Shown piece after piece: positions 217 to 12,112 of a DNA stretch of 17,807 bases. Numbering within the stretch: position 1 is the first letter of the stretch; every line of letters starts with the position of its first letter. A model generated the notes under the pieces. It made no database searches. It was not told the DNA's origin and worked only from the letters and a program-made list of their open reading frames with translations. Source of the stretch: a virus; the UHGV virus genome UHGV-1943956, one strand, 5' to 3'. The translations under genes and the position numbers were made by a program.

Positions 217-400
217 GTCTGTAACAACCAAACTGATAGTCTGCCAGACCCGCCATAACAAGCTGGGTCAGTATTAACTGGCAGCGTTCGCGTGAAAGGT
301 AAGTATTCTGCGCTATCTCCCCGACTGTCGCCGGTTCGGTAACGCTTAATTCATTAAACACCACTCTGGCGGTTTCTGTCATATCCTGCTGTTTTAGCAT
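203..400 (-). CDS. Hypothetical small protein (65 aa from the ATG at 400), possible winged-helix DNA-binding fold
   Basis: Belongs to track ORF 203..487. The internal ATG at 400 has a purine-rich stretch (aaagggaaaaag) upstream and lies downstream of the candidate tR' hairpin. The segment TVGEIAQNTYLSRERCQLILTQLV looks like an HTH or winged helix. No family recognised. Confidence 0.4.
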   Translation of the reverse strand: MLKQQDMTETARVVFNELSVTEPATVGEIAQNTYLSRERCQLILTQLVMAGLADYQFGCYRHLQS

Positions 401-520
401 GTCTTTTTCCCTTTTCCGGTTAACGTGACACACCAATAACTCTTGTCGAAAAAGCCAGCAAGCTGAAAGACAGGTATTCACCGCCACCAGCGCGTTTACT
501 GTACTGACGCGATTTCAGTC

Positions 521-544
521 ATAAAAAACCCGCCAGGCGGCGGG
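521..544 (-). terminator. Intrinsic terminator, candidate tR' downstream of Q
   Basis: Minus strand reads CCCGCC-gcct-GGCGGG followed by TTTTTTAT: a 6-bp GC stem, 4-nt loop and U-tract. It sits about 80 bp downstream of the Q stop codon, where lambdoid phages place tR'. Confidence 0.55.
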
Positions 545-593
545 GTGTAAAAAATCTTCTAACGTCAGGCATAAAACGCCCATCGTTAGAGCA

Positions 594-621
594 AATTTAC
601 CACAGATTCGGGAAAAATCAA
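594..621 (-). promoter_or_regulatory. Candidate late promoter (PR'-like) with presumed qut region
   Basis: Minus strand has TTGATT (-35, ~621-616), a 16-bp spacer and TAAATT (-10, ~599-594), between the Q stop (627) and the hairpin at 544-521. Hexamers matched by eye only. Confidence 0.3.
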
Positions 622-626
622 CAACA

Positions 627-1448
627 CTATCGCGTTACCCTCTTTAACTGCCGCTCCGCCCATGCCTCTTCAATGTCAAACCGAACCACCAACGTATCGT
701 AAAAGCGTTTCACTGATTTTTTCCACGTATCAAGCGTGATAGCACTCGTCACTTTGCATATGGCATTAAATGCCTCCGTTGATGGCAGCCTTTCACAGCC
801 ACGACCACCACAACGCTGGCAATCTCTGATAACAGGCATACCACGTTTTACCGACTCTTCACGATGAATGGCGACACCACGCCCACGGCAATCCTTACAG
901 GCGGTGGAAACCTCACCCTTTCCGCCACACTCCGGACAGGCAACTTTTACCACCTCCCTGACTTTTTTCCATTCTTCCCAGTAAGACGGATACACGCCTT
1001 TTGTGCACTTTGCCCACACTGGTGGCTTACCATCCGGATACTGGATCTTGTTTGTAAAAACCTCGCTTTCAATAAATTTTTTTCCGTGACAGCAGGGGCA
1101 CTGTTTTTTGCTCGCCGCGCTACGGGCATAATCTTCAAACGCATACGAAGCCATAATGCGCATCACTACCGGTTTTATTTCTGCCGGAAGTTTTCTCAAC
1201 GCCGCCACACGATCGCACCGACTGAGTGCATAATCTGCCAGTAATTCTGTTGCCCGCGCCCTGTCATTCATACTGATGCCCATTTTCCCCAGGAACGCAG
1301 AAAACCCCATCTCAGCCCGATTCTGTGTCATGCCCTGCGCGGCCATCACATCAGTGATACTCAGCGCATCTTTTGACGTTGAGGCCGATACATCGGTCAG
1401 GCCAGGGGATTTTGGGGAGTAGTATTTCGGTAAATCTTCCAGTTTCAT
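627..1448 (-). CDS. Antitermination protein Q, long form (QuuQ-like) with four CxxCxGxG zinc-finger repeats
   Basis: 273-aa ORF whose ATG overlaps the rusA stop (ATGA). Contains CPCCHGKK, CPECGGKG, CKDCRGRG and CQRCGGRG. Follows DUF968 and rusA as in lambdoid nin-Q regions, and is followed by promoter and terminator candidates. Family call from recalled similarity to Qin-type Q proteins. Confidence 0.75.
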   Translation of the reverse strand: MKLEDLPKYYSPKSPGLTDVSASTSKDALSITDVMAAQGMTQNRAEMGFSAFLGKMGISMNDRARATELLADYALSRCDRVAALRKLPAEIKPVVMRIMASYAFEDYARSAASKKQCPCCHGKKFIESEVFTNKIQYPDGKPPVWAKCTKGVYPSYWEEWKKVREVVKVACPECGGKGEVSTACKDCRGRGVAIHREESVKRGMPVIRDCQRCGGRGCERLPSTEAFNAICKVTSAITLDTWKKSVKRFYDTLVVRFDIEEAWAERQLKRVTR

Positions 1449-1819
1449 TTTTTGACCTGCTCTTCATGCATTATGGGGTAAATCTTCACCCCCATACGTC
1501 CACCAGATACTGGCTGACCACGAACGATATTGATTTCATCAAACTGCTCATCGTCCATTAACACTCCCGCATGCGTCAGCGCATCCAGCGGTGCTTTCAG
1601 GATATTGTCCAGGTCGCGACGACGCTTATCCGGTGGCTCTGCAATCACCTTTATCGCCAGCCTTCCGGACAGGCTTAATTTCAGCCGCTGCTGGCGAACA
1701 ATAAGCGCCACAGCCCGGCGATAACGCTTTCCCTCCTCCGAGATAAAATATGTGCTGCCACGGCGTCGCCAGTAAGTGTTCACCGTCGGCGGGTAAGGTA
1801 AAACCAAATCTATGAGCAT
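1445..1819 (-). CDS. rusA: Crossover junction endodeoxyribonuclease RusA (Holliday junction resolvase)
   Basis: 124 aa. Carries the acidic-core motif PPDKRRRDLDNILKAPLDALTHAGVLMDDEQ typical of RusA. SD agaggtg upstream of the ATG at 1819. Conserved nin-region position. Confidence 0.85.
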   Translation of the reverse strand: MLIDLVLPYPPTVNTYWRRRGSTYFISEEGKRYRRAVALIVRQQRLKLSLSGRLAIKVIAEPPDKRRRDLDNILKAPLDALTHAGVLMDDEQFDEINIVRGQPVSGGRMGVKIYPIMHEEQVKK

Positions 1820-1831
1820 CAGTCACCTCTT

Positions 1832-2878
1832 TTACCCAAGCACGCCAGTTGCAAAGGCGTGATCAAGAAAACGAAAAATTAAATCAACCTGAGAACCATG
1901 CTTTTCTTCGAACGCCAGAGGATCCGCATGAAGCTCGTTGTGATGCTCCCGACACAGCGGTAGCGTGAAAATATCGTGAGATTTTGTCCCCATTCCGCCC
2001 TGACCATGACCAATCAGGTGATGGGGATCGTCGGCTGGCTTACCACAACACGCACACGGCTGTGTCTTCACCCAGCGTGTGTATTTCTCGTTAACCCAGC
2101 GGCGACGTTTAGGTCGTTTCATGAAAGATTCCGGAGACTCAGGATCAACGGCAATGCTGACCACCGTCTCTTCCTGTGGCGGGTTTTGCTGGTGGGCGTG
2201 AGGCAGCGGCGCAAGATTTTTTGTGCGCTGCTTCAGTATGCTGGTGGCGGTCTGCTCTCCCGGTACGATGTCGCTTTCACGGTACATTGAGCGGATTTTT
2301 TCCGCACGCAACCCCAGCGAACGACGTAATACCGCTTCCGGTAGCGCGTCCGCCACCTGATTGCGGACCGCCCACCAGGATAATTCAGCCAGCGATAATT
2401 CCCGCTCCTGCGAGCCATTCATTGCATGGCGTATGACGTCAATCATCCATGCAGACAGGTTTTGGTGAGCAAGTTGCCCGAGTGATTCGGAGGTCTGGTC
2501 GCGCAGCTGGTTGTCGCAGTGCCAGCACAACACCATTGCGCCGGTACCATAACGGTGAATGACGGTTTCACTGTGGTGATAATCGCCGTGTGGCCACTGG
2601 CAGGATTTAACATGGCGCAGTAACCAGTCAGACAATGCGCCAGCGCCACCAGCAGCACGAATCACTCGTTCGTCGCTGAAAAATGGCAGTAATGATTTAT
2701 CCTCCGCCAGCGGCTGGCGAACGGCAGGAACGACCCCGGACGGCAGATTACGCATGCTTTTCGGTTCCGGCTCCACCAGTACCCGGGTATTGTGGAATAC
2801 CGGCATGGATTCACGGCCCGGCTTAACGATCACCAGCCCGAGTTCCGGTACCAGAACAGGTCGAAGTAATACCCGCAC
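1832..2878 (-). CDS. DUF968-family protein (YdfU-like) with C-terminal Cys/His-rich HNH-like motif
   Basis: 348 aa with GTG start at 2878 preceded by ggagg. C-terminal block [28 protein letters not shown]...LCREHHNELH. Paralogous to 16423-17412. Confidence 0.8.
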   Translation of the reverse strand: MRVLLRPVLVPELGLVIVKPGRESMPVFHNTRVLVEPEPKSMRNLPSGVVPAVRQPLAEDKSLLPFFSDERVIRAAGGAGALSDWLLRHVKSCQWPHGDYHHSETVIHRYGTGAMVLCWHCDNQLRDQTSESLGQLAHQNLSAWMIDVIRHAMNGSQERELSLAELSWWAVRNQVADALPEAVLRRSLGLRAEKIRSMYRESDIVPGEQTATSILKQRTKNLAPLPHAHQQNPPQEETVVSIAVDPESPESFMKRPKRRRWVNEKYTRWVKTQPCACCGKPADDPHHLIGHGQGGMGTKSHDIFTLPLCREHHNELHADPLAFEEKHGSQVDLIFRFLDHAFATGVLG

Positions 2879-2879
2879 G

Positions 2880-3152
2880 TTACCTCCAGATGCGTTGCTG
2901 GAATGTGCGGGACGGACGCGGTGGGCGTTCAGAGTAAGGAAGCCTGACGGAGATTATCCAGTGACGATAATCGAGGCTGAGGGCTTTCTTAATCTCGTAT
3001 CCGCGTCTGCGGTAGTTATGAATTAGCCATTCGGCCTGTTCTTCAGTACATGGTGGGTGTTGGTACCAGTCGGTTTTAAATGCGTGTGAACGCCGCCCAT
3101 GCCGGATGGCAAGGTCGGTATCAGAATTGTGAAATTTGGTTTTGTGCGCCAT
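2880..3152 (-). CDS. Hypothetical 90-aa protein at the position Rem occupies in the Qin prophage
   Basis: ORF stop overlaps the DUF968 start region. Lies between hok and DUF968 as in the Qin order quuQ-ydfU-rem-hokD. I cannot confirm sequence identity to Rem from memory. Confidence 0.5.
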   Translation of the reverse strand: MAHKTKFHNSDTDLAIRHGRRSHAFKTDWYQHPPCTEEQAEWLIHNYRRRGYEIKKALSLDYRHWIISVRLPYSERPPRPSRTFQQRIWR

Positions 3153-3221
3153 CTGTTTTCTCTGCTGGCGCAGCAGGTGTCAGGTGTTCAGGCTGACGTG
3201 CGAATTGTAAACCAGAATGCC

Positions 3222-3250
3222 AGAAAAAAACAAAACCCGCCGAAGCGGGT
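3222..3250 (-). terminator. Intrinsic terminator downstream of hok
   Basis: Minus strand reads aaCCCGCttcgGCGGGttttgttttttt: a GC stem-loop followed by a long U-tract, about 70 nt after the hok stop codon. Confidence 0.55.
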
Positions 3251-3319
3251 TAAGTGCGGGTGCGTTGAGGATGCCTGACACATCAGAGGTGGCGAGGGAT
3301 TTCTCCCCCGCCAGGTCTC

Positions 3320-3475
3320 TTACTCCTCAGGTTCGTAAGCTGTGAAGACAGCGACCTCCGTCTGGCCGGTTCGGAGTCGTACCTCGCAGAGGTCTTTCCT
3401 CGTTACCAGTGCCGTCACTATGACGGTTAAACAGATGACGATCAGGGCGATTAACATCGCCTTTTGCTGCTTCAT
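3320..3475 (-). CDS. hokD: Hok-family type I toxin (HokD/RelF-like), 51 aa
   Basis: Hand translation of the reverse complement gives MKQQKAMLIALIVICLTVIVTALVTRKDLCEVRLRTGQTEVAVFTAYEPEE. This is a single transmembrane helix followed by the Hok signature LCEVR.R.G..EVA. SD aaggag lies 8 nt upstream. Absent from the ORF track because it is under 60 aa. Confidence 0.85.
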   Translation of the reverse strand: MKQQKAMLIALIVICLTVIVTALVTRKDLCEVRLRTGQTEVAVFTAYEPEE

Positions 3476-3488
3476 AGCCTGCTTCTCC

Positions 3489-3518
3489 TTGACCTTTCGG
3501 TCCGTAAGAGGCTAATCT
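3489..3518 (+). promoter_or_regulatory. Candidate promoter for a Sok-like antisense RNA
   Basis: Plus strand has TTGACC (3489-3494), an 18-bp spacer and TAATCT (3513-3518), directly upstream of and antisense to the hok translation-initiation region. This matches hok/sok architecture. The 3' end of the antisense RNA is undefined. Confidence 0.3.
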
Positions 3519-3733
3519 CTATGTGTCGCATAGATATGGCCTCAGATTAATGTTAAGCGTCTTGCAGGACGCGTAATGTTAACTGGGGCTTTTCTCTATC
3601 TGCCTTTTGGTGTTCATGCCTGAGACAGATAGCCTCAAGCACCCGCAGTTATTCTACTTAACTAAGATTTCCCCGCAAACCGTTTTTGTCCGGCACAGTA
3701 AATATCCAACTAAACCAATGGCGTTCGCTGTAT

Positions 3734-3952
3734 TTACCGCCAGTATTCAATGCACATGACCGCCATGAACACCCCTAAAAAAAGGGCATTTATATGTCCA
3801 AACATTAATATCAAAACATCAATTTTTTCCATATACCTTGCTGTGAAGATGATGGGCATACATGATGCGAACAACCAGAACGCAACAAACAAAAACTGCA
3901 ATGCGTTTTTCATTATTCCCCCTACAATCAATGTGCAATAACATTTAAACAC
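3734..3952 (-). CDS. Small hydrophobic membrane protein (72 aa) in an AT-rich island
   Basis: Strong SD (agggggaa) 5-6 nt upstream of the ATG at 3952. Sequence is highly hydrophobic with two predicted TM segments. Local AT content is clearly higher than the flanks. Confidence 0.5.
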   Translation of the reverse strand: MFKCYCTLIVGGIMKNALQFLFVAFWLFASCMPIIFTARYMEKIDVLILMFGHINALFLGVFMAVMCIEYWR

Positions 3953-4033
3953 ACCTCAATTTGGCCGGACATATAAATATCTAAACCAGAAAAAATCACT
4001 TACATAGCGTTACAAACTCTTTAGTCTAAATAT

Positions 4034-4549
4034 TCATCGTAAAACATCCTCCACGCTTATCAGTCCATTTCGTTTCAGGTAATCCATCGCCTTCTCCGGT
4101 AATTTGCAGTCCGGCTGAGCTTTTTTCAGTTGACTGACCAGTCGTTTAACCCACATTGTTAATTCGCTAACCTGATTGCCGGATGCTGGTGGATTGTCGG
4201 CTTTACCCAGAATGGCAGCGCAGCAGGCCTCTCTGAGCACCCAGTCAACAGCATCCTTCCATGCTCCTGTTTCGACTGGCGGATTCTCACGCTTTACCTG
4301 TTCATAAAAGCGCACGGCTTTAACCAGTCCTTCTGATGTCACCGGGACTGGCGGGCCGATGAATAAGGCCTGAATTTCATAGTTCGGCCTGTCGTTACAA
4401 TCCTCTTTTGTCGGTACATATTTCCAGTCACCAGCCCACGGCTTCCCCTGAAAGTCTGTAACGTCTTTTTTCACGTAGCGATATCGCCATGCAACTGGTT
4501 TTGCCTGCCCTGCCGTTTCATGCCCTTCCTGATAATTAATCTCGCTCAT
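4034..4549 (-). CDS. Ea22-like family protein, paralog 1
   Basis: 171 aa starting MSEINYQ, the N-terminal signature shared with 5459-5881 and 5878-6564 and resembling lambda Ea22. ATGA overlap with the upstream small ORF. Confidence 0.7.
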   Translation of the reverse strand: MSEINYQEGHETAGQAKPVAWRYRYVKKDVTDFQGKPWAGDWKYVPTKEDCNDRPNYEIQALFIGPPVPVTSEGLVKAVRFYEQVKRENPPVETGAWKDAVDWVLREACCAAILGKADNPPASGNQVSELTMWVKRLVSQLKKAQPDCKLPEKAMDYLKRNGLISVEDVLR

Positions 4550-4722
4550 TCATCGCCCCACTCATCACAATATGCTTCGACCGGAGTTTTTCCTGCTTCA
4601 TAATCATCACGCCATGCTTCAGCATCAGCAGCACTGCCACCACGTAACTCTGCATAGTCCATTAACAGTTCATGCCATGCTTCAAAACTGACGTTGTATT
4701 TAGTTGAACCAAAATCAGCCAT
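4546..4722 (-). CDS. Hypothetical small acidic protein (58 aa), not in the ORF track
   Basis: Hand translation gives MADFGSTKYNVSFEAWHELLMDYAELRGGSAADAEAWRDDYEAGKTPVEAYCDEWGDE. SD-like gaggaag upstream. Stop overlaps the next start (ATGA). Fills an otherwise empty 165-bp gap in a tightly packed operon. Confidence 0.4.
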   Translation of the reverse strand: MADFGSTKYNVSFEAWHELLMDYAELRGGSAADAEAWRDDYEAGKTPVEAYCDEWGDE

Positions 4723-4897
4723 TTTGCTCTTCCTCTTCGTCTTTTATTTCGTGATATGAGTAATTGCAGTAGTTAAAGAAAATATCTTTTGCTTCGTCAT
4801 GTATTTCATCAGGCGTCGCATCATCATCCACTTCGAATTCATCCTCGAAATCTCCACCGGCTATTTCCGTTTCAATAATTATTTTAAACTTTCGCAT
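4715..4897 (-). CDS. Hypothetical small acidic protein (60 aa)
   Basis: ORF within the leftward operon, rich in Asp/Glu. Its start is preceded by an unusual hairpin between the SD and the ATG. Confidence 0.45.
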   Translation of the reverse strand: MRKFKIIIETEIAGGDFEDEFEVDDDATPDEIHDEAKDIFFNYCNYSYHEIKDEEEEQNG

Positions 4898-4990
4898 TTA
4901 ACTACCGCCCTTTCGGGCGGCCTCCTGATGTTCTGAGGGTGCAGAAATCCCTCCGGTTAAGGATTAAATTTTTAACAGAGCTAAATTTAA

Positions 4991-5347
4991 TTATTCAGTT
5001 CTGGATTTTGTCGCCCTGCGTATCCGCGCTTTCGCGTTACGCTCAATCTGAATTAGCTTTTCTATATTTTTTCGCCTTTCCCGCTCCTCCTGGCGCAAGT
5101 GCCTTACATCATCTGCCAGTCTGGTTTCTCTTTTCGCCACAGAGAGCATCCAGTCAAATGGCTCCACAACTGCACCGCAGATTTTACAGCGGACCTGACG
5201 CTCTTTTTCGTCAACCCGGACAGAGGCGTGATGACAATATGGTCTTTCCGATGGCTCATAAAGAAAATTAACCTGATTACGAGGGTCATCCTCTTTTACC
5301 GGAAATAAAACGATATTGCTTAACTCATCCTCTGGTTTTATTTCCAT
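4991..5347 (-). CDS. Hypothetical protein with Cys/His zinc-ribbon-like motif (118 aa)
   Basis: Strong SD aaggagagg upstream of the ATG at 5347. Motif CHH...CKIC followed by a basic, coiled-coil-like C-terminus. Confidence 0.65.
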   Translation of the reverse strand: MEIKPEDELSNIVLFPVKEDDPRNQVNFLYEPSERPYCHHASVRVDEKERQVRCKICGAVVEPFDWMLSVAKRETRLADDVRHLRQEERERRKNIEKLIQIERNAKARIRRATKSRTE

Positions 5348-5458
5348 GCTCCTCTCCTTTGATGCGAATGCCAGAGACGCGTAATGCGTGTTCTAGGTCA
5401 ATCAGGTAAAGCCAACTGCCATTTTCTTTAGGTATCATGACTTGTCGCTCATCTGCAT

Positions 5459-5881
5459 TTATCGGGTGTCCATATCGAAGGTCGTAGCGAGTCGGTAATT
5501 GAACTTCCCGCGCTTCCAGTTCAGCAATACGCTTGCACCCATCAGAGATAACTCCCTCGTAATACTCGCGCTGCTCGTTGAGTTNNNNNNNNNNNNNNNN
5601 NNNNNNNNNNNNNNNNNNNNNNNNNNNNNNNNNNNNNNNNNNNNNNNNNNNNNNNNNNNNNNNNNNNNNNNNNNTCTTTCCCGTTCATCCAGTAGTGCCA
5701 GCACGGTTTCTGGTCCGGTCAGAAATTTGAAGGCATTGAGCGCATCAATATCCACACCGTAATCTTTAAGTTCCTGTTCACTTAACAAATCATCATCAGC
5801 TGGCAACATTAACAGGCGTTCCATTGCTGGAATTGCACGTTCCGCCACCTCACGCAGTGACTGGTAATTAATTTCGCTCAC
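5459..5881 (-). CDS. Ea22-like family protein, paralog 2, interrupted by an assembly gap
   Basis: GTG start preceded by aaggagg. N-terminus MSEINYQSLREVAE... and LALLDERER, which resembles lambda Ea22. The reading frame crosses a 90-nt N run, so the 3' part and true length are unverified. Confidence 0.45.
   Translation of the reverse strand: MSEINYQSLREVAERAIPAMERLLMLPADDDLLSEQELKDYGVDIDALNAFKFLTGPETVLALLDERERXXXXXXXXXXXXXXXXXXXXXXXXXXXXXXNSTSSASITRELSLMGASVLLNWKRGKFNYRLATTFDMDTR
5585..5674. other. Assembly gap (run of 90 N)
   Basis: Ninety consecutive ambiguous bases. The real length and sequence are unknown. Confidence 0.99.
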
Positions 5882-6564
5882 TGGTTGCCTCCTTTGCGAA
5901 GCTGGGCAGCAAAGTCAACTAACCACTCCGTCATTTCAACCTTCCCTACCAGGTCTGAACCAGGGTGCATACAGCAATCACTCTGCGCCGCTTTGAAATC
6001 CTTATACTCATATTCTTGGGCCACCAGATTTTTTGCAGCTTCTATAGCAGCATCCACCCCCTGCGCCCGGACTTCAGCCAGGAAAGCATCAGTGGTTGGC
6101 GTTTCAGGTATCTGTCTCCTCATCCGTTCTATTGCATGATTGAACCCGAAGTCTTCCGCGAGAGATACGTCATCCATATTGTCATTGTCATCCTCAATAT
6201 CCCGTGATTCTGGAATTGCAGACTTTATTCCTGCATTCTCCGCTGTCAGCGCCGCGCACTTGGCCTCAAGAGCGGCAACCACTTCCTGATGGTCTTTGTA
6301 CTTAACGTATGAGCCGGAGATGTCATCACCTTCGGTGTTTAGCCATGCGTCATTGCAATTCACTGCGTAGGTTCTGATGCTCATGTTGATGCTCTCCCGC
6401 CCCTGACAGACGCCAGGCCAGTCAATAAAGTATCCGCAATGCCTACCCTCAGACGTGCGCGCAGGATAAATGCCGTTATGACCCGGCATAATATATGCTA
6501 CCCATTCATCTTGCGTTGCCTGTTCCGCCGCCTCGCGCAGTGCCTGATAGTCAATCTTGCTCAC
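5878..6564 (-). CDS. Ea22-like family protein, paralog 3
   Basis: 228 aa with GTG start preceded by aaggagg. N-terminus MSKIDYQALREAAEQATQDEW resembles lambda Ea22. Its stop overlaps the start of paralog 2 (GTGA). Confidence 0.7.
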   Translation of the reverse strand: MSKIDYQALREAAEQATQDEWVAYIMPGHNGIYPARTSEGRHCGYFIDWPGVCQGRESINMSIRTYAVNCNDAWLNTEGDDISGSYVKYKDHQEVVAALEAKCAALTAENAGIKSAIPESRDIEDDNDNMDDVSLAEDFGFNHAIERMRRQIPETPTTDAFLAEVRAQGVDAAIEAAKNLVAQEYEYKDFKAAQSDCCMHPGSDLVGKVEMTEWLVDFAAQLRKGGNQ

Positions 6565-6865
6565 TGGCAGCCTCCTTTGCCGGGATTTCTAACTTTTGAG
6601 TGGTTGTATCAAATTCAAACAACTTAACCACGTCATCAAACAGGACATAATCACCATCAGGATCTTCAGTCATATCTGCGCCACAATCCTGACCGCACGA
6701 GTCGCAACCATCCATATCAAGCTCGTATCGCTTCAGGTTTGCGATATTTGATAAATTCAGCGCCAGTACAGCCAGGTCATAAACCTCTTCGGCAGTGACA
6801 TCGCTGTTCAGTCCCATTTCATGGCGATATATGATTTTTTCTACTCGTTGTTTTGTGATCGTCAT
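6551..6865 (-). CDS. Hypothetical protein (104 aa from the ATG at 6865)
   Basis: Track ORF 6551..6889 begins at a TTG. The ATG at 6865 has a ggag SD upstream. The C-terminal region is acidic with a CDSCGQDCG motif. Start choice is uncertain; ATG 6817 is an alternative. Confidence 0.45.
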   Translation of the reverse strand: MTITKQRVEKIIYRHEMGLNSDVTAEEVYDLAVLALNLSNIANLKRYELDMDGCDSCGQDCGADMTEDPDGDYVLFDDVVKLFEFDTTTQKLEIPAKEAASEQD

Positions 6866-7136
6866 TTTTCTCTTCACTCCGATATACAAGGATTACTACA
6901 CCCCCTCTGCTGATTGCGCGAGCTGGATCCCCTGGTTCCATGCCGTCAATTCCGAAGGCTTCGGAAAACGCATTCATTGCCTTCTGGCGTTCATCCTGCT
7001 TACGGCGTTTATTCCATTTTTTCAGGAACAACAGCGACAGCCACCGTCCGCTGCAGAACACGATGTAAAAATAACCAAGGAGCGCCAGGCCGACATTCAG
7101 GGCCGTTTCTATGGTTAGTTGTGAGTCAGTTGCCAT
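6819..7136 (-). CDS. Hypothetical single-pass membrane protein (105 aa)
   Basis: Hydrophobic segment LNVGLALLGYFYIVFCSG followed by a basic KKWNKRRKQDERQK stretch. SD-like aggtaag upstream. Confidence 0.5.
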   Translation of the reverse strand: MATDSQLTIETALNVGLALLGYFYIVFCSGRWLSLLFLKKWNKRRKQDERQKAMNAFSEAFGIDGMEPGDPARAISRGGVVILVYRSEEKNDDHKTTSRKNHISP

Positions 7137-7374
7137 TTCTTACCTGTTTAAGTAACTGGTTGAACATAACACTTAGGGGATTGCTGTATCCAAACGGCAG
7201 ATTGTTTACGCAGTACAGAATCATTTTGTTTTTTTCTCCAGTTCGTACTATTAACCCATTCCACAATAACCGTGATAATTCATTACTGATAGAAGTTGCG
7301 CTTCTTCCAAGTGCGAGGGATATATCTTCTCTACTGCAATCTGGATTTTCCTGGATATACTCGATAACGGTCAT
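7126..7374 (-). CDS. Hypothetical small protein, possible winged-helix DNA-binding (82 aa)
   Basis: The ATG at 7374 has SD aaaggga 6 nt upstream, which I prefer over the track start at 7416 that has no SD. Segment SREDISLALGRSATSISNELSRLL is HTH-like. Confidence 0.5.
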   Translation of the reverse strand: MTVIEYIQENPDCSREDISLALGRSATSISNELSRLLWNGLIVRTGEKNKMILYCVNNLPFGYSNPLSVMFNQLLKQVRNGN

Positions 7375-7384
7375 GTGGTCCCTT

Positions 7385-7966
7385 TTACTTAATATCTGTT
7401 TCGGATTGCATGCCATGAGTATTCATTTCGTTAATAATTTCATCCAGAAGGATTTCAAGCCCTTCTCGACCCATATCTGAAAGAATGAAACCTTTATCAG
7501 GGGAAGTAGTGAGCATTTTCTGATAAAGAAACAGCGCTCTTCCCATTCCTTCAGTTTCGCCGTATTTTTGAATTAAATTCCATTCAATATACTGTTGTAA
7601 GGCAAATCGAATGGGGCCGGGATATATCGTCATAAACCCATACATCCCGTTATATACCACGGCGTGTTCAGTTGTTCCGTGTTCATTCAGGATATCAATT
7701 GTGCCGTTCTTGTCTTCTTCTTCGTTGATGAATGTCGTCACATACAACCATCGCCACTGAGCAACCTTCATCTCAACCGGAAGTTTACCCAGTAATCCTG
7801 CTTCGTCGGCTTGCGCCAGACACTGAAGGATACGTAAACCTCGCACATTAGGAGTATCGAATTCTCCGGCATCCAGACGACGTATGGCGTCGTGATAATC
7901 AATCGTCATACTGCCAGTTCGTATACCATTGGCTGTTGCTTCAGCCTGGAATTCATCGTATTGCAT
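7385..7966 (-). CDS. Hypothetical protein (193 aa), no recognisable family
   Basis: SD gagga upstream of the ATG at 7966. Starts 5 nt after the stop of the upstream 62-aa acidic ORF. Confidence 0.6.
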   Translation of the reverse strand: MQYDEFQAEATANGIRTGSMTIDYHDAIRRLDAGEFDTPNVRGLRILQCLAQADEAGLLGKLPVEMKVAQWRWLYVTTFINEEEDKNGTIDILNEHGTTEHAVVYNGMYGFMTIYPGPIRFALQQYIEWNLIQKYGETEGMGRALFLYQKMLTTSPDKGFILSDMGREGLEILLDEIINEMNTHGMQSETDIK

Positions 7967-7971
7967 GATAT

Positions 7972-8160
7972 TTATTCCTCATCTTCATCTTCATCTGCTG
8001 GTGCAATAACGTCATATCCTGCCTTTTCTGCAATAAACAGGAATGTTGAAAGAGTTCCTACAAGTTCATCGTCATGAACATGGCGAATGAATATTACTTT
8101 CCCGTTTTTGATGGTCAGCAATATTCTGGTTTGTTCGTGTTCTGCTGTTTTCTGATGCAT
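7972..8160 (-). CDS. Hypothetical small protein with polyacidic C-terminal tail (62 aa)
   Basis: SD gggag upstream. C-terminus APADEDEDEE. Immediately precedes the 193-aa gene. Confidence 0.5.
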   Translation of the reverse strand: MHQKTAEHEQTRILLTIKNGKVIFIRHVHDDELVGTLSTFLFIAEKAGYDVIAPADEDEDEE

Positions 8161-8354
8161 TATTATCTCCCGTATGCTTTACGCAGAAATAAGCAGGCAA
8201 TATGCATGTAATTTTCACCGTATTGTGCAATAAGGCAGGCGGTCTTGTGTGATGCCATATTCTTTATAAAAGTCACAATAAAGCCTCCTGTGGTTTAAGG
8301 TTGTAACAATCCCCGGCGATAAAACCGCAATAAACGTTCAAGGCATATTTGTTG

Positions 8355-8720
8355 TTATTGCGCTAATTCTTTTTCGGCAGCAGCTTTTGTATACTCACAT
8401 GCAAAACTCAGAATTTCGCTGCCGAGTGTTTTCGTTTCGTGATTACTGGACATATGTAATACCTGTGTTGCATGCAATAAATGATAAACATTTACCGCAA
8501 ATGAATCAGGCTCCAGGCAAATGCCTTCGTAATTATCTTGCTGTGAGGTTGTTTCTGTCATTGCTCCTGAAGTGCATACGAGCCTGTTTTTGACAATTCT
8601 CTTTTCTCTAATCACTATATCGGCAACATCTATTGCCTTTACAACCTCCGGGAGAAGTTCCGGGTTTGTATAATCAAAGTCATCAACATGGAGAACAGTT
8701 ATGTTTTCGAACTTTTTCAT
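8355..8720 (-). CDS. Hypothetical protein (121 aa)
   Basis: SD gagga 5 nt upstream of the ATG at 8720. No family recognised. Confidence 0.55.
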   Translation of the reverse strand: MKKFENITVLHVDDFDYTNPELLPEVVKAIDVADIVIREKRIVKNRLVCTSGAMTETTSQQDNYEGICLEPDSFAVNVYHLLHATQVLHMSSNHETKTLGSEILSFACEYTKAAAEKELAQ

Positions 8721-8848
8721 GGTTTCCTCAGCTGACTTATATGTTCTGCTATATAGCGAGTCTCAGAAGTGTTTTCATATTGAGACTGTTTCCGCAATGA
8801 TTGATAAAAATGTTCGCATGTACCTTGAGGGGCGAAGCGGCGATTATG

Positions 8849-9352
8849 TCACCATTGGTATTGGTTCTTCCGTAGAAGAGCTTCGCGAGATAAGGGGCAA
8901 ACTTGTTGAGATGCGTCATGGTGTTGCTGCTCCTCACTTTTTGGTTGCTCCGGAGGAGTAACCTCACCAGTTAACAGCCACATCGGATCGCAGCCAAGAA
9001 TATTTGCCAGTGGGATAAGCATACTGATAGTTGGTTCATACTCTCCGCTCTCCCACTGGATGATAATTTCTTCATCGAGATCGAGCAGCCTGGCGAGTTC
9101 GGCGGTTGTTAAGCCGCAGGCTTCGCGTTGGGTGCGAAGACGGGTGTTGATTGCAGAATTTTTGTTCTGTAAAAGCATTGCTGACGATAGCTTTCTGGAT
9201 ATGCTATTTGTCATATCCCATGCCAGTCCTGCGCATGACTCTATATCGCTAGAGAGCGTAGCATCAGGTGTTGCTTTTGCTATTAGTGTAATGAGGCTGC
9301 CGAGGTTTTTCAGTTCTTCGAGACAGTCAAGAGTTGTAGCTTTATTGATCAT
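8849..9352 (-). CDS. HTH (XRE-type) DNA-binding protein with N-terminal extension (167 aa); first gene after the left operator
   Basis: Central HTH segment LRTQREACGLTTAELARLLDLDEEIIIQWESGEYEPTISMLIPLANILG. SD-like gaggt upstream of the ATG at 9352. The internal ATG at 9178 is an alternative start. Confidence 0.55.
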   Translation of the reverse strand: MINKATTLDCLEELKNLGSLITLIAKATPDATLSSDIESCAGLAWDMTNSISRKLSSAMLLQNKNSAINTRLRTQREACGLTTAELARLLDLDEEIIIQWESGEYEPTISMLIPLANILGCDPMWLLTGEVTPPEQPKSEEQQHHDASQQVCPLSREALLRKNQYQW

Positions 9353-9392
9353 GAGATGATACCTCAGTTACGAACTTTGTTTTATGGTAACT

Positions 9393-9431
9393 AAGGTATC
9401 AAGGTGTGGCAAGTGATTTTTGATACTTTGG
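9393..9431. promoter_or_regulatory. Left operator/promoter region (OL/PL-like)
   Basis: Inverted pair AAGGTATCAA (9393-9402) and TTGATACTTTGG (9420-9431) shares the TTGATAC core with the sites near OR. It lies directly downstream of the repressor gene and upstream of the leftward operon. Candidate -35 and -10 hexamers on the minus strand overlap it. Confidence 0.45.
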
Positions 9432-9455
9432 TTTCTTTTTGTGTTTTGTGTCTGG

Positions 9456-10112
9456 TCAGAAAATATCCCACCTGGCATCAACCACAACACCTACTATTTC
9501 GCAATCATTGTCCATTTCTATGATTGGATATTGTGGATTAAGGGGCTTTAGAAACGCCTTTCCCATGTCAGAAATATATTTTTTGAATGTTGCTTCATTG
9601 GTAGATTTTTTTCTGGCGATGACGTAACACCCTGAAAAAACTTCTTTATCTGGGTTGACAAGGATCGACATTCCTTCAGGAAATGTTATTCCTACGGGCG
9701 AAGTCATTGAGTCTCCGTGCACTTCCAGCCAGAACCCCCTCTCACCAGCGTATTTTACAGAATGCCTCCAATTATCCTGATCATACATGTTGTAGTCATC
9801 ACCAGAAGTTGCGAATAATCCTGCCTGAACCCAGTTAATTACAGGGTAAGAGTGTGCTGTGTCTCTCTGTGGGCAGCTCTTAACATTATTTTCCCAATGC
9901 TTATCTTTTTCATCTCCGTTCTGAAGCCACTGCGGTGAACACCGCAGTGCAGCTGCAACTTTAAAAAGGGTGTCACCGTTGAAACTTTTTGTAAGGCCTT
10001 GCTCGGCTTTACTGATTGCAACTCTGGTGATCCCAGCTTTTTTAGCCAACGCATCTTGTGTTAACCCAGCTTTTTGCCGTGCGTTGATGAGACGTTCACC
10101 TAAAGACTTCAT
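9456..10112 (-). CDS. CI/LexA-type phage repressor (N-terminal HTH_XRE, C-terminal S24 peptidase)
   Basis: The ATG at 10112 has SD aggag 7 nt upstream. HTH segment LTQDALAKKAGITRVAISKAEQG. Ala-Gly candidate cleavage site in VQAGL. S24 catalytic motifs GDSM (Ser) and FKKY (Lys). Flanked on both sides by operator repeats. Confidence 0.85.
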   Translation of the reverse strand: MKSLGERLINARQKAGLTQDALAKKAGITRVAISKAEQGLTKSFNGDTLFKVAAALRCSPQWLQNGDEKDKHWENNVKSCPQRDTAHSYPVINWVQAGLFATSGDDYNMYDQDNWRHSVKYAGERGFWLEVHGDSMTSPVGITFPEGMSILVNPDKEVFSGCYVIARKKSTNEATFKKYISDMGKAFLKPLNPQYPIIEMDNDCEIVGVVVDARWDIF

Positions 10113-10134
10113 TTTTCTTCTCCTCTCATGGCTG

Positions 10135-10208
10135 TTGATACTAAAGTAACAGAATTTCTTGATACTTTGGATTCCTGTGGTTAACATCGTTGAATAACAA
10201 AGTATCTG
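10135..10208. promoter_or_regulatory. Right operator/promoter region (OR with divergent PR and PRM-like promoters)
   Basis: Three copies of the operator core: TTGATACTAAAG (10135-10146), TTGATACTTTGG (10159-10170) and an inverted GATACTTTG (10198-10206). A plus-strand candidate PR has TTGATA (10159-10164), a 17-bp spacer and TAACAT (10182-10187). Confidence 0.5.
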
Positions 10209-10223
10209 GTGTGAGACTAAAGA

Positions 10224-10451
10224 ATGACCCTTTATGAAATATTAAAAATTCAATTTAAAACCAATGCCGCTATTGGTCGCAGGTTCCCAAAGAAAGGAAG
10301 GCCTCGTGGCAGTCAAGGTGTTGGAAAGTGGAAAACGCGAGGTGTTCCGGAGGATGTTGCCATTCTTTGTCATCTGGATCCGAGCATTCCATATACACAC
10401 CCAAGTCTAGCGAATACAGAAGATGACAAGCCCACAGGAGACCAACAATGA
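10224..10451 (+). CDS. Hypothetical small basic protein at the cro position (75 aa)
   Basis: Its stop overlaps the start of the next gene (ATGA). It has a weak SD and no obvious HTH, and could instead be an untranslated leader. Confidence 0.3.
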   Translation: MTLYEILKIQFKTNAAIGRRFPKKGRPRGSQGVGKWKTRGVPEDVAILCHLDPSIPYTHPSLANTEDDKPTGDQQ

Positions 10452-11155
10452 ACACCGCAATTTTTAACGGCAAAGCATCCATGACCAGCGTTGAGATCGC
10501 AGAGCTGGTGGGAAGCCGACCAGATAGTGTTAAGAGAACTATTGAAACACTGGCTAAAAAGGGAATCATCCAATTTCCACAGACTGTGGAAATTGAGAAT
10601 AAACAATCACTTGGGCCTCGCCGATTTTCTAGCGCGTATGTATTCGAAGGTGAACGAGGTAAGCGCGACAGCATCATTGTCGTCGCACAGCTCTGTCCTG
10701 AATTCACATCTCGCCTGGTAGATCGCTGGCGCGAACTGGAAGAACAGATCCGTAAGCCAATGAGCGAAATCGAAATGGTTGCCGCGATGGCTCTTGAAGC
10801 CGTTCGCCAACAGAAACGGATCACTCAGGTGGAAGAAAAAGTCAGCCACGTTGCTGAAACAGTCGAGCAAATTAAAAAGGGCACTATTCGTGAGGGCTAT
10901 GCCGGATATCGCCAACTGAAAGCAAAAACCGGTTTGTCAGATGATAAATGCCGCAATCTGGTGAACGCCTATCAAATTCCTACAGACACCCATGAGTTCA
11001 TGACGCCGGACGGATTGTTGTCACGTCGCGCAATTGTTGCTGTGGAACCGTTTATGGCTGCTTTTTATCGGGTTATGGAGGAAGCAGAACCGCGAGGGAC
11101 TCGCTGGTATCACCCGAAAATGGGGTTATTTCAGGTTATTGGTTGGCAGCGGTGA
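10448..11155 (+). CDS. Putative phage regulatory protein with Rha-like N-terminal DNA-binding domain (235 aa)
   Basis: SD aggag 9 nt upstream. N-terminal MTSVEIAELVGSRPDSVKRTIETL matches the pattern of the Rha N-terminus seen in the next gene. Confidence 0.6.
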   Translation: MNTAIFNGKASMTSVEIAELVGSRPDSVKRTIETLAKKGIIQFPQTVEIENKQSLGPRRFSSAYVFEGERGKRDSIIVVAQLCPEFTSRLVDRWRELEEQIRKPMSEIEMVAAMALEAVRQQKRITQVEEKVSHVAETVEQIKKGTIREGYAGYRQLKAKTGLSDDKCRNLVNAYQIPTDTHEFMTPDGLLSRRAIVAVEPFMAAFYRVMEEAEPRGTRWYHPKMGLFQVIGWQR

Positions 11156-11343
11156 AAAAAAGCCGGGAGTAACCCGGCTCACTCAACATCAATAACGGGG
11201 AGCTGTTTCGCATAAAACGGCTCCGAAACATCCAAGAACAGTTCTAAAGATATCAGCAGCTATATGATCATTTCAAGACCAAATATTGATTCTGCAATTT
11301 CGGGACGTTACACTGTCTCCGCACCTTATAAAGCGGGTGCCGG

Positions 11344-11369
11344 GATTGGCGTCCTGAAATTCGCACATG
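11344..11369. repeat. Direct repeat copy 1 (GATTGGCGTCC...AAATTCGCACATG)
   Basis: GATTGGCGTCC at 11344-11354 and AAATTCGCACATG at 11357-11369. Both segments recur at 11509-11549. Confidence 0.6.
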
Positions 11370-11374
11370 CGCAT

Positions 11375-11397
11375 AACCGCGCTTCAGCGGTTTTTTT
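11375..11397 (+). terminator. Candidate intrinsic terminator inside the rightward operon
   Basis: AACCGC-gcttca-GCGGTT stem-loop followed by TTTTT, lying between the two direct-repeat copies. Confidence 0.4.
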
Positions 11398-11508
11398 GCG
11401 CACGTTTCCTCACATCCAAATTATGGTGGGGCGTGCAGGGGCATCGAAAGATGCGCCGGGGTCATGTGCGACCGGTTACGCCAACCCTGTACGTCTCACC
11501 ACCTCTGT

Positions 11509-11549
11509 GATTGGCGTCCCATGTGGTGAGTTTTCAAAATTCGCACATG
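11509..11549. repeat. Direct repeat copy 2 (with 15-nt insertion)
   Basis: GATTGGCGTCC at 11509-11519 and AAATTCGCACATG at 11537-11549, ending 12 nt before the Rha start codon. Confidence 0.6.
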
Positions 11550-11560
11550 AGGATGTCACT

Positions 11561-12112
11561 ATGGCAACCACCCCTACCCAAACTCACCCTAAAATTGATG
11601 TTATCCATGGGAAGGCTGTTACCTCTTCTTTGGCCGTTGCCGAATATTTCTGCAAGCAGCACAAAAACGTTATTCAAAAAATCCAGACGCTTGAGTGCTC
11701 TGTTGAATTCACTGAGCTGAATTTTCAGCCCAGTGATTACACCGATTGCACAGGCCGCAAACTACCTTGCTATCAAATCACCCGCGATGGCTTCGCGTTC
11801 CTTGCTATGGGCTTTACTGGCAAACGTGCAGCCCGGTTCAAAGAGGCATACATCAACGCCTTTAACCAGATGGAGAAGAATTTATCTGGTGCTGACGCGG
11901 TTGATATGTCAGCTGTCGCACGAAACGCCAGAGGCGTATACCTGCATTTGCGTGAAATCCATCAAATCTGGACAAGCCAGCTTTATCCAATGCTTAAGGC
12001 CGTTGAATCTCCGCTGGCTAGCAAACTGTACGACCGTGTTGGTGATGCTGTTTTTGGCGCTGCACTTGTTGATTCCAGGCTGAATGGTTCTGACAAGGAG
12101 GTTCGCCCATGA
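11561..12112 (+). CDS. Phage regulatory protein, Rha family
   Basis: The ATG at 11561 has SD gagga 8 nt upstream. Sequence VTSSLAVAEYFCKQHKNVIQKIQTL...GRKLPCYQITRDGFAFLAMGFTGKRAARFKEAYINAFNQMEK matches the Rha family signature. The 99 upstream in-frame codons of the track ORF are treated as non-coding. Confidence 0.8.
   Translation: MATTPTQTHPKIDVIHGKAVTSSLAVAEYFCKQHKNVIQKIQTLECSVEFTELNFQPSDYTDCTGRKLPCYQITRDGFAFLAMGFTGKRAARFKEAYINAFNQMEKNLSGADAVDMSAVARNARGVYLHLREIHQIWTSQLYPMLKAVESPLASKLYDRVGDAVFGAALVDSRLNGSDKEVRP

What the first reader, a model, noticed from the sequence alone, without database searches (positions are those of the whole stretch)
9393..10208. Repressor gene bracketed by five operator-like repeats with a TTGATAC core
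The dodecamer TTGATACTTTGG occurs identically at 9420-9431 and 10159-10170. Variants occur at 10135-10146 (TTGATACTAAAG), 10198-10206 (inverted GATACTTTG) and 9393-9402 (inverted). Two sites lie downstream of the repressor gene and three upstream, overlapping candidate divergent promoters. This mirrors the lambda OL/OR layout and defines a specific immunity specificity for this element.
Basis: seen in the sequence. Interest (0 to 1): 0.45.

Follow-up and report, generated by a model that had tools for sequence, protein, structure and literature searches.

The report
Prophage repressor flanked by six operators
The repeats are very probably the binding sites (operators) of a lambda/P22-type prophage repressor, three on each side of its gene and covering the two early promoters. 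This is a textbook immunity switch whose operator sequence had not turned up in the papers I could search.

Summary
All five TTGATAC-type repeats are at the stated coordinates. A sixth copy (9357-9372) lies just left of the reported interval.

Each copy is a 16-bp partly dyad-symmetric site, TGATAC-N4-GTWWCn. Three sites (A, B, C) lie between the repressor stop codon and the first leftward gene. Three (D, E, F) lie between the repressor start and a divergent cro-like gene. B sits in the spacer and -10 of a predicted leftward promoter. E covers the -35 and F the start region of a predicted rightward promoter.

The repressor (9456-10112, minus strand) has an HTH domain plus an S24 autocleavage domain. 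It is 44% identical to P22 c2 and clearly related to lambda CI.

The same sites, with OR spacings of exactly 24 and 32 bp, recur in immunity regions from E. coli phages (phiP27, Stx1a and Stx2a phages) and seven other enterobacterial genera. All of these keep the recognition helix [VI][TS]RVAISKAE[QL]G.

A motif-first scan of 2.9 million viral contigs gave 80 loci, and every one adjoins such a repressor.

Binding itself is untested, and the maintenance promoter is not located.

Verdict: an ordinary lambdoid immunity region, and a new member of a known kind.

The parts
9357..9372 (+). Operator A (OL side): TGATACCTCAGTTACG. Lies in the predicted 5' leader of the leftward transcript and overlaps the Shine-Dalgarno sequence (CCTC at 9362-9365, GAGG on the minus strand) of the leftward gene.
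   Evidence: (I1). Identical in 44 of 47 distinct close relatives. Present in the E. coli/Stx, Xenorhabdus, Photorhabdus and Providencia groups. Absent in the Salmonella, Citrobacter, Klebsiella and Yersinia relatives.
9386..9401 (-). Operator B (OL side): TGATACCTTAGTTACC on the minus strand. Occupies the spacer and -10 of the predicted PL.
   Evidence: Nearly invariant in relatives. Present in all 11 immunity regions compared.
9421..9436 (+). Operator C (OL side): TGATACTTTGGTTTCT. Lies just upstream of the PL -35 and 19 bp from the repressor stop codon.
   Evidence: In relative L106 this site is the near-perfect dyad TGATACTAAAGTATCT.
9384..9412 (-). Predicted early leftward promoter PL: -35 TTGCCA (9412-9407), 17-bp spacer, -10 TACCAT (9389-9384).
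   Evidence: Consensus scan. Equivalent TTGACA/TTGCNN -35 and TAC(C/A)(A/T)T -10 elements sit at fixed distance from B in all relatives. The transcript start is not mapped.
9456..10112 (-). Repressor gene, 218 aa: HTH_3 N-terminal domain plus Peptidase_S24 C-terminal domain. Recognition helix ITRVAISKAEQG. The Ala-Gly (VQAG), GDSM and FKK motifs align with the corresponding lambda CI stretches, which I recall as its cleavage site, catalytic Ser149 and Lys192.
   Evidence: Pfam. Lambda CI 3bdn E = 8.7e-34, with alignment. P22 c2 44% identity, E = 7e-64. RefSeq annotates it as 'LexA family protein'.
10136..10151 (+). Operator D (OR side, nearest the repressor start): TGATACTAAAGTAACA, 12 of 16 positions self-complementary. 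Contains the only conserved -10-like hexamer (TAGTAT, reverse complement of 10138-10143) that could serve a maintenance promoter.
   Evidence: The promoter assignment is inference only; the scan found no leftward promoter here.
10160..10175 (+). Operator E (OR side): TGATACTTTGGATTCC. Covers the -35 and spacer of PR.
   Evidence: TGATACTTTGG is invariant, apart from one TGATACTTTAG variant, across the relatives from other genera.
10192..10207 (-). Operator F (OR side): AGATACTTTGTTATTC on the minus strand, just downstream of the PR -10 over the expected start site. It is the weakest match in this window. In most close relatives it reads ...TTATCC, and in the Stx2a phage it is the perfect dyad GGATACTTAAGTATCC.
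10159..10187 (+). Predicted early rightward promoter PR: -35 TTGATA (10159-10164), 17-bp spacer, -10 TAACAT (10182-10187).
   Evidence: Consensus scan. TTGATA-17-TAnnnT is conserved in all relatives in an ungapped anchored alignment.
10224..10451 (+). cro-like gene, 75 aa, first gene of the rightward operon and divergent from the repressor.
   Evidence: Position. Its homologues always sit divergently next to an HTH + S24 repressor. The AlphaFold model has pLDDT 84. The best PDB fold matches are all-alpha Cro proteins but are weak (E = 0.6, TM 0.51-0.57). No Pfam, NCBIfam or PDB sequence match.
8849..9352 (-). First gene of the leftward operon, 167 aa, with an HTH_3 domain at residues 72-126. 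This is the gene the OL sites would control.
   Evidence: Pfam. PHROG 'CII-like regulator' E = 4e-40. Function not established.
10212..10227 (+). Possible weak fourth OR site, TGAGACTAAAGAATGA, over the cro ribosome-binding site and start codon.
   Evidence: Repeat D10; matrix score 8.9. Seen only in the window/phiP27 group and not conserved in L002, L003 or L106. Low confidence.

Best explanation
The repeats are the operators of a P22/lambda-type immunity switch in an E. coli lambdoid prophage related to phiP27.

Dimers of the repressor encoded at 9456-10112 would bind six 16-bp partly symmetric sites (consensus TGATACTTTAGTTTCA; symmetric core G-N2-AC ... GT-N2-C). On the right, E covers the -35 and F the start region of PR, shutting off cro and the replication genes. 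D lies next to the repressor's own start and probably autoregulates it. On the left, B sits in the spacer and -10 of PL, C lies upstream of it and A in the leader, shutting off the leftward operon.

The C-terminal domain keeps motifs that align with the lambda CI stretches I recall as the Ala-Gly cleavage site and the Ser/Lys dyad, so RecA-stimulated self-cleavage after DNA damage would free both promoters. The small cro-like protein would then presumably act on the same sites.

Shown here: the sites, their statistics, their conservation, their overlap with consensus promoters, and the repressor homology. Inferred: binding itself, order of occupancy, cooperativity, OL-OR looping (715 bp apart), the role of Cro, and the maintenance promoter.
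For: 1. Sites are real and non-random.
2. The gene between them is a CI/c2 homologue with HTH + S24 domains: Pfam; lambda CI E = 8.7e-34, with VQAG, GDSM and FKK aligned to the corresponding lambda CI stretches; P22 c2 44% identity.
3. A consensus scan finds exactly one outward-facing promoter in each gap, each overlapped by sites.
4. Phylogenetic footprint in 47 distinct close relatives: 28 of 96 site columns vary against 88 of 118 other intergenic columns, Fisher p = 4e-11.
5. Relatives from Salmonella, Citrobacter, Klebsiella, Yersinia, Xenorhabdus, Photorhabdus and Providencia have repressors 62-74% identical with the helix [VI][TS]RVAISKAE[QL]G retained. They keep three OR sites at centre spacings of exactly 24 and 32 bp, and two or three OL sites.
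6. In ten loci not used to build the matrix, hits scoring 13 or more run at 22.5 per kb in the two flanks against 0.05 per kb elsewhere.
7. A motif-first scan of the viral collection with the D-E pair gave 80 loci. All 80 adjoin a repressor with that helix, and 79 have the cro-family gene.
8. Dyad symmetry: 4.28 of 8 complementary pairs per site against 2.10 +/- 0.17 in shuffles.
9. A Serratia relative (51% identity, helix VSRMAISKIEMG) keeps the 24/32 layout but with different half-sites (TGTAAAC...GTTTA).
10. P22, the closest characterised relative, has c2 directly flanked by annotated OL1-3 and OR1-3.
Against: - No binding data exist here, and none turned up in the searchable literature.
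- In this window most sites are only weakly symmetric, with 3-4 of 8 complementary pairs; only D reaches 6.
- Conservation of E and B is confounded with the PR -35 and PL -10 elements they overlap.
- The matrix and site orientation were derived from the window's own sites, so the consensus is partly circular.
- The distant relatives were retrieved through the cro-like gene, so repressor and Cro cannot be separated as the binding protein except in the single Serratia case.
- The footprint test does not correct for relatedness of the sequences.
- No convincing maintenance promoter was found. The only conserved -10-like element lies inside D, with its -35 inside E. That would not allow lambda-style activation from the middle operator.
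Confidence: 0.85

Rival explanations
1. The sites are recognised mainly by another regulator of the region rather than by the S24 repressor. Candidates are the cro-like protein, the 167-aa HTH protein encoded leftward, and a Rha/Ant-like protein.
For: The cro-like gene co-occurs with the sites in every locus examined. The distant relatives were found through it. The leftward gene carries an HTH domain.
Against: - The leftward 167-aa HTH gene is absent from most relatives that keep the sites.
- The Serratia element keeps a cro homologue at 69% identity, a level typical of the family. Its repressor helix and operator half-sites have both changed, so the sites track the repressor.
- In lambda, 434 and P22, Cro and repressor share operators (established knowledge). 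Cro binding would therefore add to repressor binding rather than replace it.
Confidence: 0.05
2. The repeats are only promoter elements (TTGATA resembles the -35 consensus TTGACA), or leftovers of a local duplication, with no dedicated binding protein.
For: E's TTGATA is the predicted PR -35. C and E share a 26-nt direct repeat at 81% identity (D2).
Against: - Only one of the six copies coincides with a -35 element.
- A lies in a leader, F lies downstream of a -10, and B and F are inverted.
- Conservation extends over 16 bp with a dyad partner.
- Conservation persists across genera while the spacers diverge.
- The motif is exclusive to this repressor family in the viral collection.
Confidence: 0.03
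3. Sites A and B act mainly as an RNA (or cruciform) hairpin rather than as operators. Their 15-bp inverted repeat would occlude the ribosome-binding site of the leftward gene or pause transcription.
For: The minus-strand RNA folds at -20 kcal/mol, z = -5.1, in the window and at -22.9 kcal/mol, z = -6.6, in the Stx2a phage. The Shine-Dalgarno sequence lies in the 3' arm. This lineage lacks the terminator that other genera have between the repressor gene and OL.
Against: - Each arm is by itself a full match to the operator consensus found at the other four positions.
- B is present in all relatives, including those where A is absent or where the pair does not fold (z about -1).
- The predicted PL start lies in the loop, so PL transcripts would lack the 5' arm.
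- The few natural variants are transitions to G-U pairs or a mismatch. None is compensatory.
- A dual role is more likely than an RNA-only role.
Confidence: 0.05

Closest known systems
Salmonella phage P22 c2 repressor with OL1-3 / OR1-3
   Same: - It is the closest characterised protein: 44% identity over 211 aa, E = 7e-64.
- The repressor gene is flanked directly by three annotated operators on each side, with no gene in between.
- cro is divergent, PR lies within OR and PL within OL.
- The HTH domain is of the same class as P22 c2 and 434 (PDB matches 1adr, 2r1j, 1zug).
   Different: - P22 operators are 18 bp of the type ATTTAAG-N4-CTTAAAT, with centre spacings of 25 and 23 bp as read from the record. 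Here they are 16 bp, TGATAC-N4-GTWWC, with spacings of 24 and 32 bp.
- The recognition helix differs: VSNVAISQWERS in P22 against ITRVAISKAEQG here.
- The P22 maintenance transcript is annotated to start 4 nt upstream of the c2 start codon. Here the gene has an AGGAG ribosome-binding site and needs a leader.
- In P22 the leftward operon leads to the N-like gene 24 through nutL. Here the first leftward gene is an HTH regulator 100 bp away, and no N-like gene was seen.
Phage lambda CI with OL / OR
   Same: - Whole-protein homology (3bdn E = 8.7e-34) is strongest in the C-terminal domain. VQAG, GDSM and FKK align with the corresponding lambda CI stretches.
- Three operators on each side.
- The D-E spacing of 24 bp equals lambda OR1-OR2 (the lambda value is from my own knowledge).
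   Different: - Lambda operators are 17 bp with a different sequence, and rexA and rexB lie between cI and OL, giving an OL-OR distance of about 2.4 kb (lambda details from my own knowledge). Here the distance is 715 bp.
- The N-terminal domain here is nearer to the 434/P22 class.
- The geometry needed for lambda-style activation of the maintenance promoter from the middle operator was not found.
Operator regions of Shiga-toxin phages 933W and H-19B
   Same: These are lambdoid E. coli phages whose number of operators departs from 3 + 3. 933W has three OR and two OL sites, and H-19B has four OR sites (review PMC8065619). In this family too, some relatives have two OL sites and others three. Stx1a and Stx2a phages carry this very immunity region.
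   Different: Those phages have different repressors and different operator sequences. No experimental work on the phiP27-type repressor or its sites was found.

Membership tests
Lambdoid CI/c2-type immunity repressor (HTH + S24 autopeptidase) | N-terminal Cro/CI-type helix-turn-helix domain | tested here: met
   Pfam HTH_3 E = 1.7e-14, residues 10-63. PDB matches to 434 Cro, P22 c2 and 434 repressor N-terminal domains.
Lambdoid CI/c2-type immunity repressor (HTH + S24 autopeptidase) | C-terminal S24 domain with Ala-Gly cleavage site and Ser/Lys catalytic dyad | tested here: met
   Peptidase_S24 E = 3.2e-22. The alignment to lambda CI puts VQAG, GDSM and FKK opposite VQAG, GNSM and FKK, which I recall as the lambda cleavage site, Ser149 and Lys192. 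Cleavage itself was not tested.
Lambdoid CI/c2-type immunity repressor (HTH + S24 autopeptidase) | Specific binding of the repressor to the flanking operators | not testable with these tools
   Indirect support only: the sites co-occur with the recognition helix in 80 of 80 motif-first loci and across genera.
Lambda/P22-type bipartite operator layout (OL and OR) | Multiple related, dyad-symmetric sites in both gaps flanking the repressor gene | tested here: met
   Three sites on each side. Partial dyad symmetry of 4.28 of 8 pairs against 2.10 in shuffles.
Lambda/P22-type bipartite operator layout (OL and OR) | Sites overlap outward early promoters PL and PR | tested here: met
   The consensus scan finds PR at 10159-10187 (+) and PL at 9412-9384 (-), overlapped by E and F and by B. 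Both are conserved in relatives. The promoters are predicted, not mapped.
Lambda/P22-type bipartite operator layout (OL and OR) | Divergent cro gene as first gene of the PR operon | tested here: inconclusive
   A 75-aa gene occupies the cro position in every relative. The confident model (pLDDT 84) has all-alpha Cro proteins as best fold matches, but at E = 0.6. No sequence-family match.
Lambda/P22-type bipartite operator layout (OL and OR) | Maintenance promoter within OR, regulated by the repressor | tested here: inconclusive
   No leftward promoter in OR passed the scan. The only conserved -10-like hexamer lies inside D.
Lambda/P22-type bipartite operator layout (OL and OR) | Cooperative binding to adjacent sites and OL-OR looping | not testable with these tools
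   Only suggestive evidence: invariant 24- and 32-bp spacings and homology of the C-terminal domain to lambda CI.
P22 c2 immunity specificity (same operators as P22) | Operators of the type ATTTAAG-N4-CTTAAAT and the c2 recognition helix | tested here: not met
   The operator sequences and helix differ. This is a distinct immunity specificity.

The most novel reading that the evidence does not exclude
In the E. coli/Stx lineage, the inverted operator pair A/B may have a second role as an RNA hairpin. This lineage has no terminator between the repressor gene and OL. Maintenance transcripts that read through the repressor gene would carry both arms and fold a -20 kcal/mol stem that buries the ribosome-binding site of the leftward HTH regulator. 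Transcripts started at PL begin inside the loop and would be translatable. The leftward regulator would then be kept silent at the translational level in lysogens, without a terminator. A related unexcluded point is that the switch logic may differ from lambda, because the only candidate maintenance promoter has both of its hexamers inside D and E.
Probability: 0.12. Interest if true: 0.45.

Novelty: new member of a known kind. Interest (0 to 1): 0.25.

Why it matters
The result gives a concrete operator consensus, site map and promoter assignment for the phiP27-type immunity group. This group is carried by 283 of 5,426 complete E. coli genomes and by Stx1a- and Stx2a-converting phages.

Three practical uses follow:
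- predicting which prophages are homo-immune;
- designing reporter or induction assays for Shiga-toxin phages of this group;
- annotating equivalent regions in Salmonella, Klebsiella, Yersinia, Providencia, Photorhabdus and Xenorhabdus prophages.

Conceptually it adds nothing new to the lambda/P22 paradigm.

Tried and rejected
- **17-bp register.** I first read the sites as 17-bp palindromes like lambda's. That fits A and B (10 and 12 of 17 self-complementary) but not C, D or E (2-4 of 17). The 16-bp register fits D, the perfect dyad at F in the Stx2a phage, and C in L106, so I kept it.
- **Loose 12-mer scan.** Enrichment shows only with the core or the refined pattern.
- **Literature.** Searches for phiP27 with operator and repressor, and for eight sequence strings on both strands, found nothing relevant. 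The phiP27 genome paper (PMID 11895953, PMC127862) is not held, so I cannot exclude that it mentions these repeats.
- **Repressor-based search of one genome per species.** This reached only relatives at 51% identity or less with other specificities. The informative cross-genus relatives came from the cro-like protein.
- **Family searches for the cro-like protein.** Pfam, NCBIfam and PDB sequence searches were empty. The fold search gave only weak Cro matches.
- **Maintenance promoter.** No candidate passed the scan, and manual candidates are weak.
- **Covariation in the A/B hairpin.** The natural variants are too few, and none is compensatory.
- **Whole-chromosome motif density.** This could not be measured, because only the window and the fetched loci are available.

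Full report
**1. The observation**

- TTGATACTTTGG at 9420-9431 and at 10159-10170
- TTGATACTAAAG at 10135-10146
- CAAAGTATC at 10198-10206
- AAGGTATCAA at 9393-9402

The heptamer TTGATAC occurs 8 times in the window against 1.9 expected. None of 200 shuffles reached 8. Four of the eight copies lie in the two ~100-bp gaps that flank one gene.

The 12-mer with three mismatches allowed is not enriched (22 hits against 17), so the signal is in the core and its context.

It forms a 15-nt inverted repeat with 9387-9401 (I1).

**2. What the unit is**

I first tried a 17-bp lambda-like register, but it fits only two sites. A weight matrix hit site D on both strands one base apart, which pointed to a 16-bp dyad.

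In this register the six window sites are:

| Site | Coordinates | Strand | Sequence |
|---|---|---|---|
| A | 9357-9372 | + | TGATACCTCAGTTACG |
| B | 9386-9401 | - | TGATACCTTAGTTACC |
| C | 9421-9436 | + | TGATACTTTGGTTTCT |
| D | 10136-10151 | + | TGATACTAAAGTAACA |
| E | 10160-10175 | + | TGATACTTTGGATTCC |
| F | 10192-10207 | - | AGATACTTTGTTATTC |

- The pattern GATACNNNNGWWWC has 5 hits in 17.8 kb, all at these sites, against 0.18 expected.
- In relatives some sites are near-perfect dyads. F in the Stx2a phage reads GGATACTTAAGTATCC, and C in L106 reads TGATACTAAAGTATCT.
- Over 47 distinct sites from 11 immunity regions the consensus is TGATACTTTAGTTTCA.
- Symmetry is partial but real: 4.28 of 8 complementary pairs per site against 2.10 +/- 0.17 in shuffles. 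It is carried by pairs 2/15, 5/12 and 6/11.
- As I recall for lambda operators, one half (TGATAC) is much better conserved than the other.

**3. The genes**

The repressor:
- The gene between the two clusters (9456-10112, minus strand, 218 aa) has HTH_3 and Peptidase_S24 domains.
- It matches lambda CI at E = 8.7e-34. Its VQAG, GDSM and FKK motifs align with VQAG, GNSM and FKK of lambda CI. I recall these as lambda's Ala-Gly cleavage site, catalytic serine and catalytic lysine.
- It is 44% identical to P22 c2.

Neighbouring genes:
- Rightward and divergent from the repressor lies a 75-aa gene (10224-10451) with no family match.
- Homologues of this 75-aa gene always sit divergently next to an HTH + S24 repressor.
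- Its model is confident (pLDDT 84). The best fold matches are all-alpha Cro proteins, but only weakly (E = 0.6, TM 0.51-0.57).
- Leftward, the first gene (8849-9352) is a 167-aa HTH protein.

Context:
- The region is 100% identical to a prophage at the mlrA site of E. coli AR_0013, 95% to phage phiP27, and 87% to Stx1a and Stx2a phages.
- 283 of 5,426 complete E. coli genomes carry a match.

**4. Promoters**

A consensus scan of 9200-10400 finds one outward promoter in each gap:
- PR: TTGATA (10159-10164), 17-bp spacer, TAACAT (10182-10187), plus strand.
- PL: TTGCCA (9412-9407), 17-bp spacer, TACCAT (9389-9384), minus strand.

E covers the PR -35 and spacer, and F the expected start. B fills the PL spacer and -10, C lies just upstream of its -35, and A lies in the leader over the ribosome-binding site of the leftward gene. 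Both promoters recur at fixed distance from the sites in all relatives.

I could not locate a maintenance promoter. The only conserved -10-like hexamer (TAGTAT/TAGTTT) lies inside D, and its -35 would fall inside E. That geometry does not fit lambda-style activation.

**5. Comparative evidence**

*Close relatives.* Among 47 distinct sequences (IMG/VR loci and phages, 74-100% DNA identity), 28 of 96 site columns vary against 88 of 118 other intergenic columns (Fisher p = 4e-11). This test ignores relatedness.

*Distant relatives.* Elements from Salmonella, Citrobacter, Klebsiella, Yersinia, Xenorhabdus, Photorhabdus and Providencia were reached through the cro-like protein.
- Their repressors are 62-74% identical and retain the helix [VI][TS]RVAISKAE[QL]G.
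- All have three OR sites with centre spacings of exactly 24 and 32 bp.
- All have two or three OL sites, with B-C spacings of 34-36 bp and A-B spacings of 24-29 bp.
- An ungapped alignment anchored on E shows conserved D, E and F blocks in otherwise diverged DNA.
- In the ten loci not used for training, strong matrix hits occur at 22.5 per kb in the two flanks against 0.05 per kb elsewhere.

*Motif-first test.* I scanned the viral collection for the D-E pair (ACTAAAGTARCA-N8-TGATACTTTGG). It gave 80 loci. All 80 adjoin a repressor with that helix, and 79 have the cro-family gene; the remaining locus is cut by the contig end.

*A single covariation case.* A Serratia relative (51% identity, helix VSRMAISKIEMG) keeps the 24/32 layout and a 69%-identical cro homologue. 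Its half-sites have changed to TGTAAAC...GTTTA, and E has lost GATAC. This suggests that the sites follow the repressor rather than Cro.

**6. Mechanism**

The best-supported reading is a P22/lambda-type switch.
- Repressor dimers on E and F block PR, and on B (with C and A) block PL.
- D, next to the repressor's start, probably autoregulates it.
- RecA-stimulated self-cleavage lifts repression, and the cro-like protein probably uses the same sites.

Binding, affinity order, cooperativity and OL-OR looping over 715 bp are all inferred. Confidence that these are operators of this repressor is about 0.85.

**7. Comparison with known systems**

- *P22 (closest).* c2 is directly bracketed by annotated OL1-3 and OR1-3, as here. 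Its operators are 18 bp of a different sequence, with 25- and 23-bp spacings. Its maintenance transcript starts almost at the c2 start codon.
- *Lambda.* It shares the C-terminal domain and the 3 + 3 count. From my own knowledge, rexA and rexB lie between cI and OL.
- *Stx phages.* 933W has three OR and two OL sites, and H-19B has four OR sites (PMC8065619). This family likewise varies between two and three OL sites.
- *Literature.* No paper in the searchable library contains these operator strings or describes phiP27-type operators. The phiP27 genome paper is not held.

**8. Side observation**

In the E. coli/Stx lineage, A and B form a stable RNA hairpin on the minus strand. It folds at -20 kcal/mol (z = -5.1) in the window and at -22.9 kcal/mol (z = -6.6) in the Stx2a phage. 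The ribosome-binding site of the leftward gene lies in the 3' arm.

This lineage also lacks the terminator that the other genera have between the repressor gene and OL. In those genera the equivalent pair does not fold (z about -1). This may gate translation in read-through transcripts, but there is no compensatory variation to support it.

**9. Verdict**

This is an ordinary lambdoid immunity region with a distinct, apparently undescribed operator specificity that is shared across Enterobacterales. It is a new member of a known kind, of modest interest (0.25).

Noticed in passing
window 9357-9401 (minus-strand RNA): Operators A and B form a 15-bp inverted repeat that folds as RNA at -20 kcal/mol (z = -5.1). 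The Shine-Dalgarno sequence of the leftward gene (CCTC at 9362-9365 on the plus strand) lies in the 3' arm, and the predicted PL start falls in the loop. The fold is strong in the E. coli/Stx group and absent in Providencia, Photorhabdus and Xenorhabdus relatives.
   Followed up: partly
window 9402-9455; L121, L124, L126, L128-L131 downstream of the repressor: The window and its close relatives have no intrinsic terminator between the repressor stop codon and OL. Relatives from seven other genera all carry a GC hairpin plus T-run there. Transcripts of the repressor gene may therefore read into the leftward operon in this lineage.
   Followed up: partly
window 8849-9352 (-): The first gene under the predicted PL is a 167-aa protein with a C-terminal-half HTH_3 domain. 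It matches a PHROG labelled 'CII-like regulator' (E = 4e-40) rather than an N-type antiterminator. Its length varies among relatives (138 aa in phiP27, 215 aa in Stx phages), and it is absent in most other genera.
   Followed up: partly
window 10224-10451 (+): The cro-position protein belongs to a family with no Pfam, NCBIfam or PDB sequence match. The family is 61-95% identical across Enterobacterales, with an invariant QxVGKW...GVP..VAILCH core. It stays 69% identical even in the Serratia element, whose repressor helix and operators differ.
   Followed up: partly
window 10448-11155 and 11264-12112 (+): Two Rha/antirepressor-like genes follow cro directly, where lambda has cII. The second one also carries a Phage_ASH domain.
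   Followed up: no
window 10212-10227: A weak extra operator-like 16-mer, TGAGACTAAAGAATGA, lies over the cro ribosome-binding site and start codon. It is conserved only in the window/phiP27 group.
   Followed up: partly
window 5585-5674: A run of 90 N (masked or unresolved bases) lies inside the window.
   Followed up: no
window 1-9300: The left arm is mosaic. No complete E. coli genome covers 80% or more of it in one place, although 9300-10500 is 100% identical to several genomes.
   Followed up: no
window 10113-10187: The mechanical ORF list extends the repressor frame to an upstream ATG at 10187 (243 aa). RefSeq and all relatives use the start at 10112, which is preceded by AGGAG.
   Followed up: yes
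L106 (reverse-complement coordinate 960) and L129 (1941): There are two strong matrix hits outside the immediate flanks in relatives: AGATACTTTGTTTATT, about 240 bp beyond the repressor stop in L106, and TGAGACTTTGGTTGCC in the Yersinia locus. They could be extra sites or chance matches.
   Followed up: no
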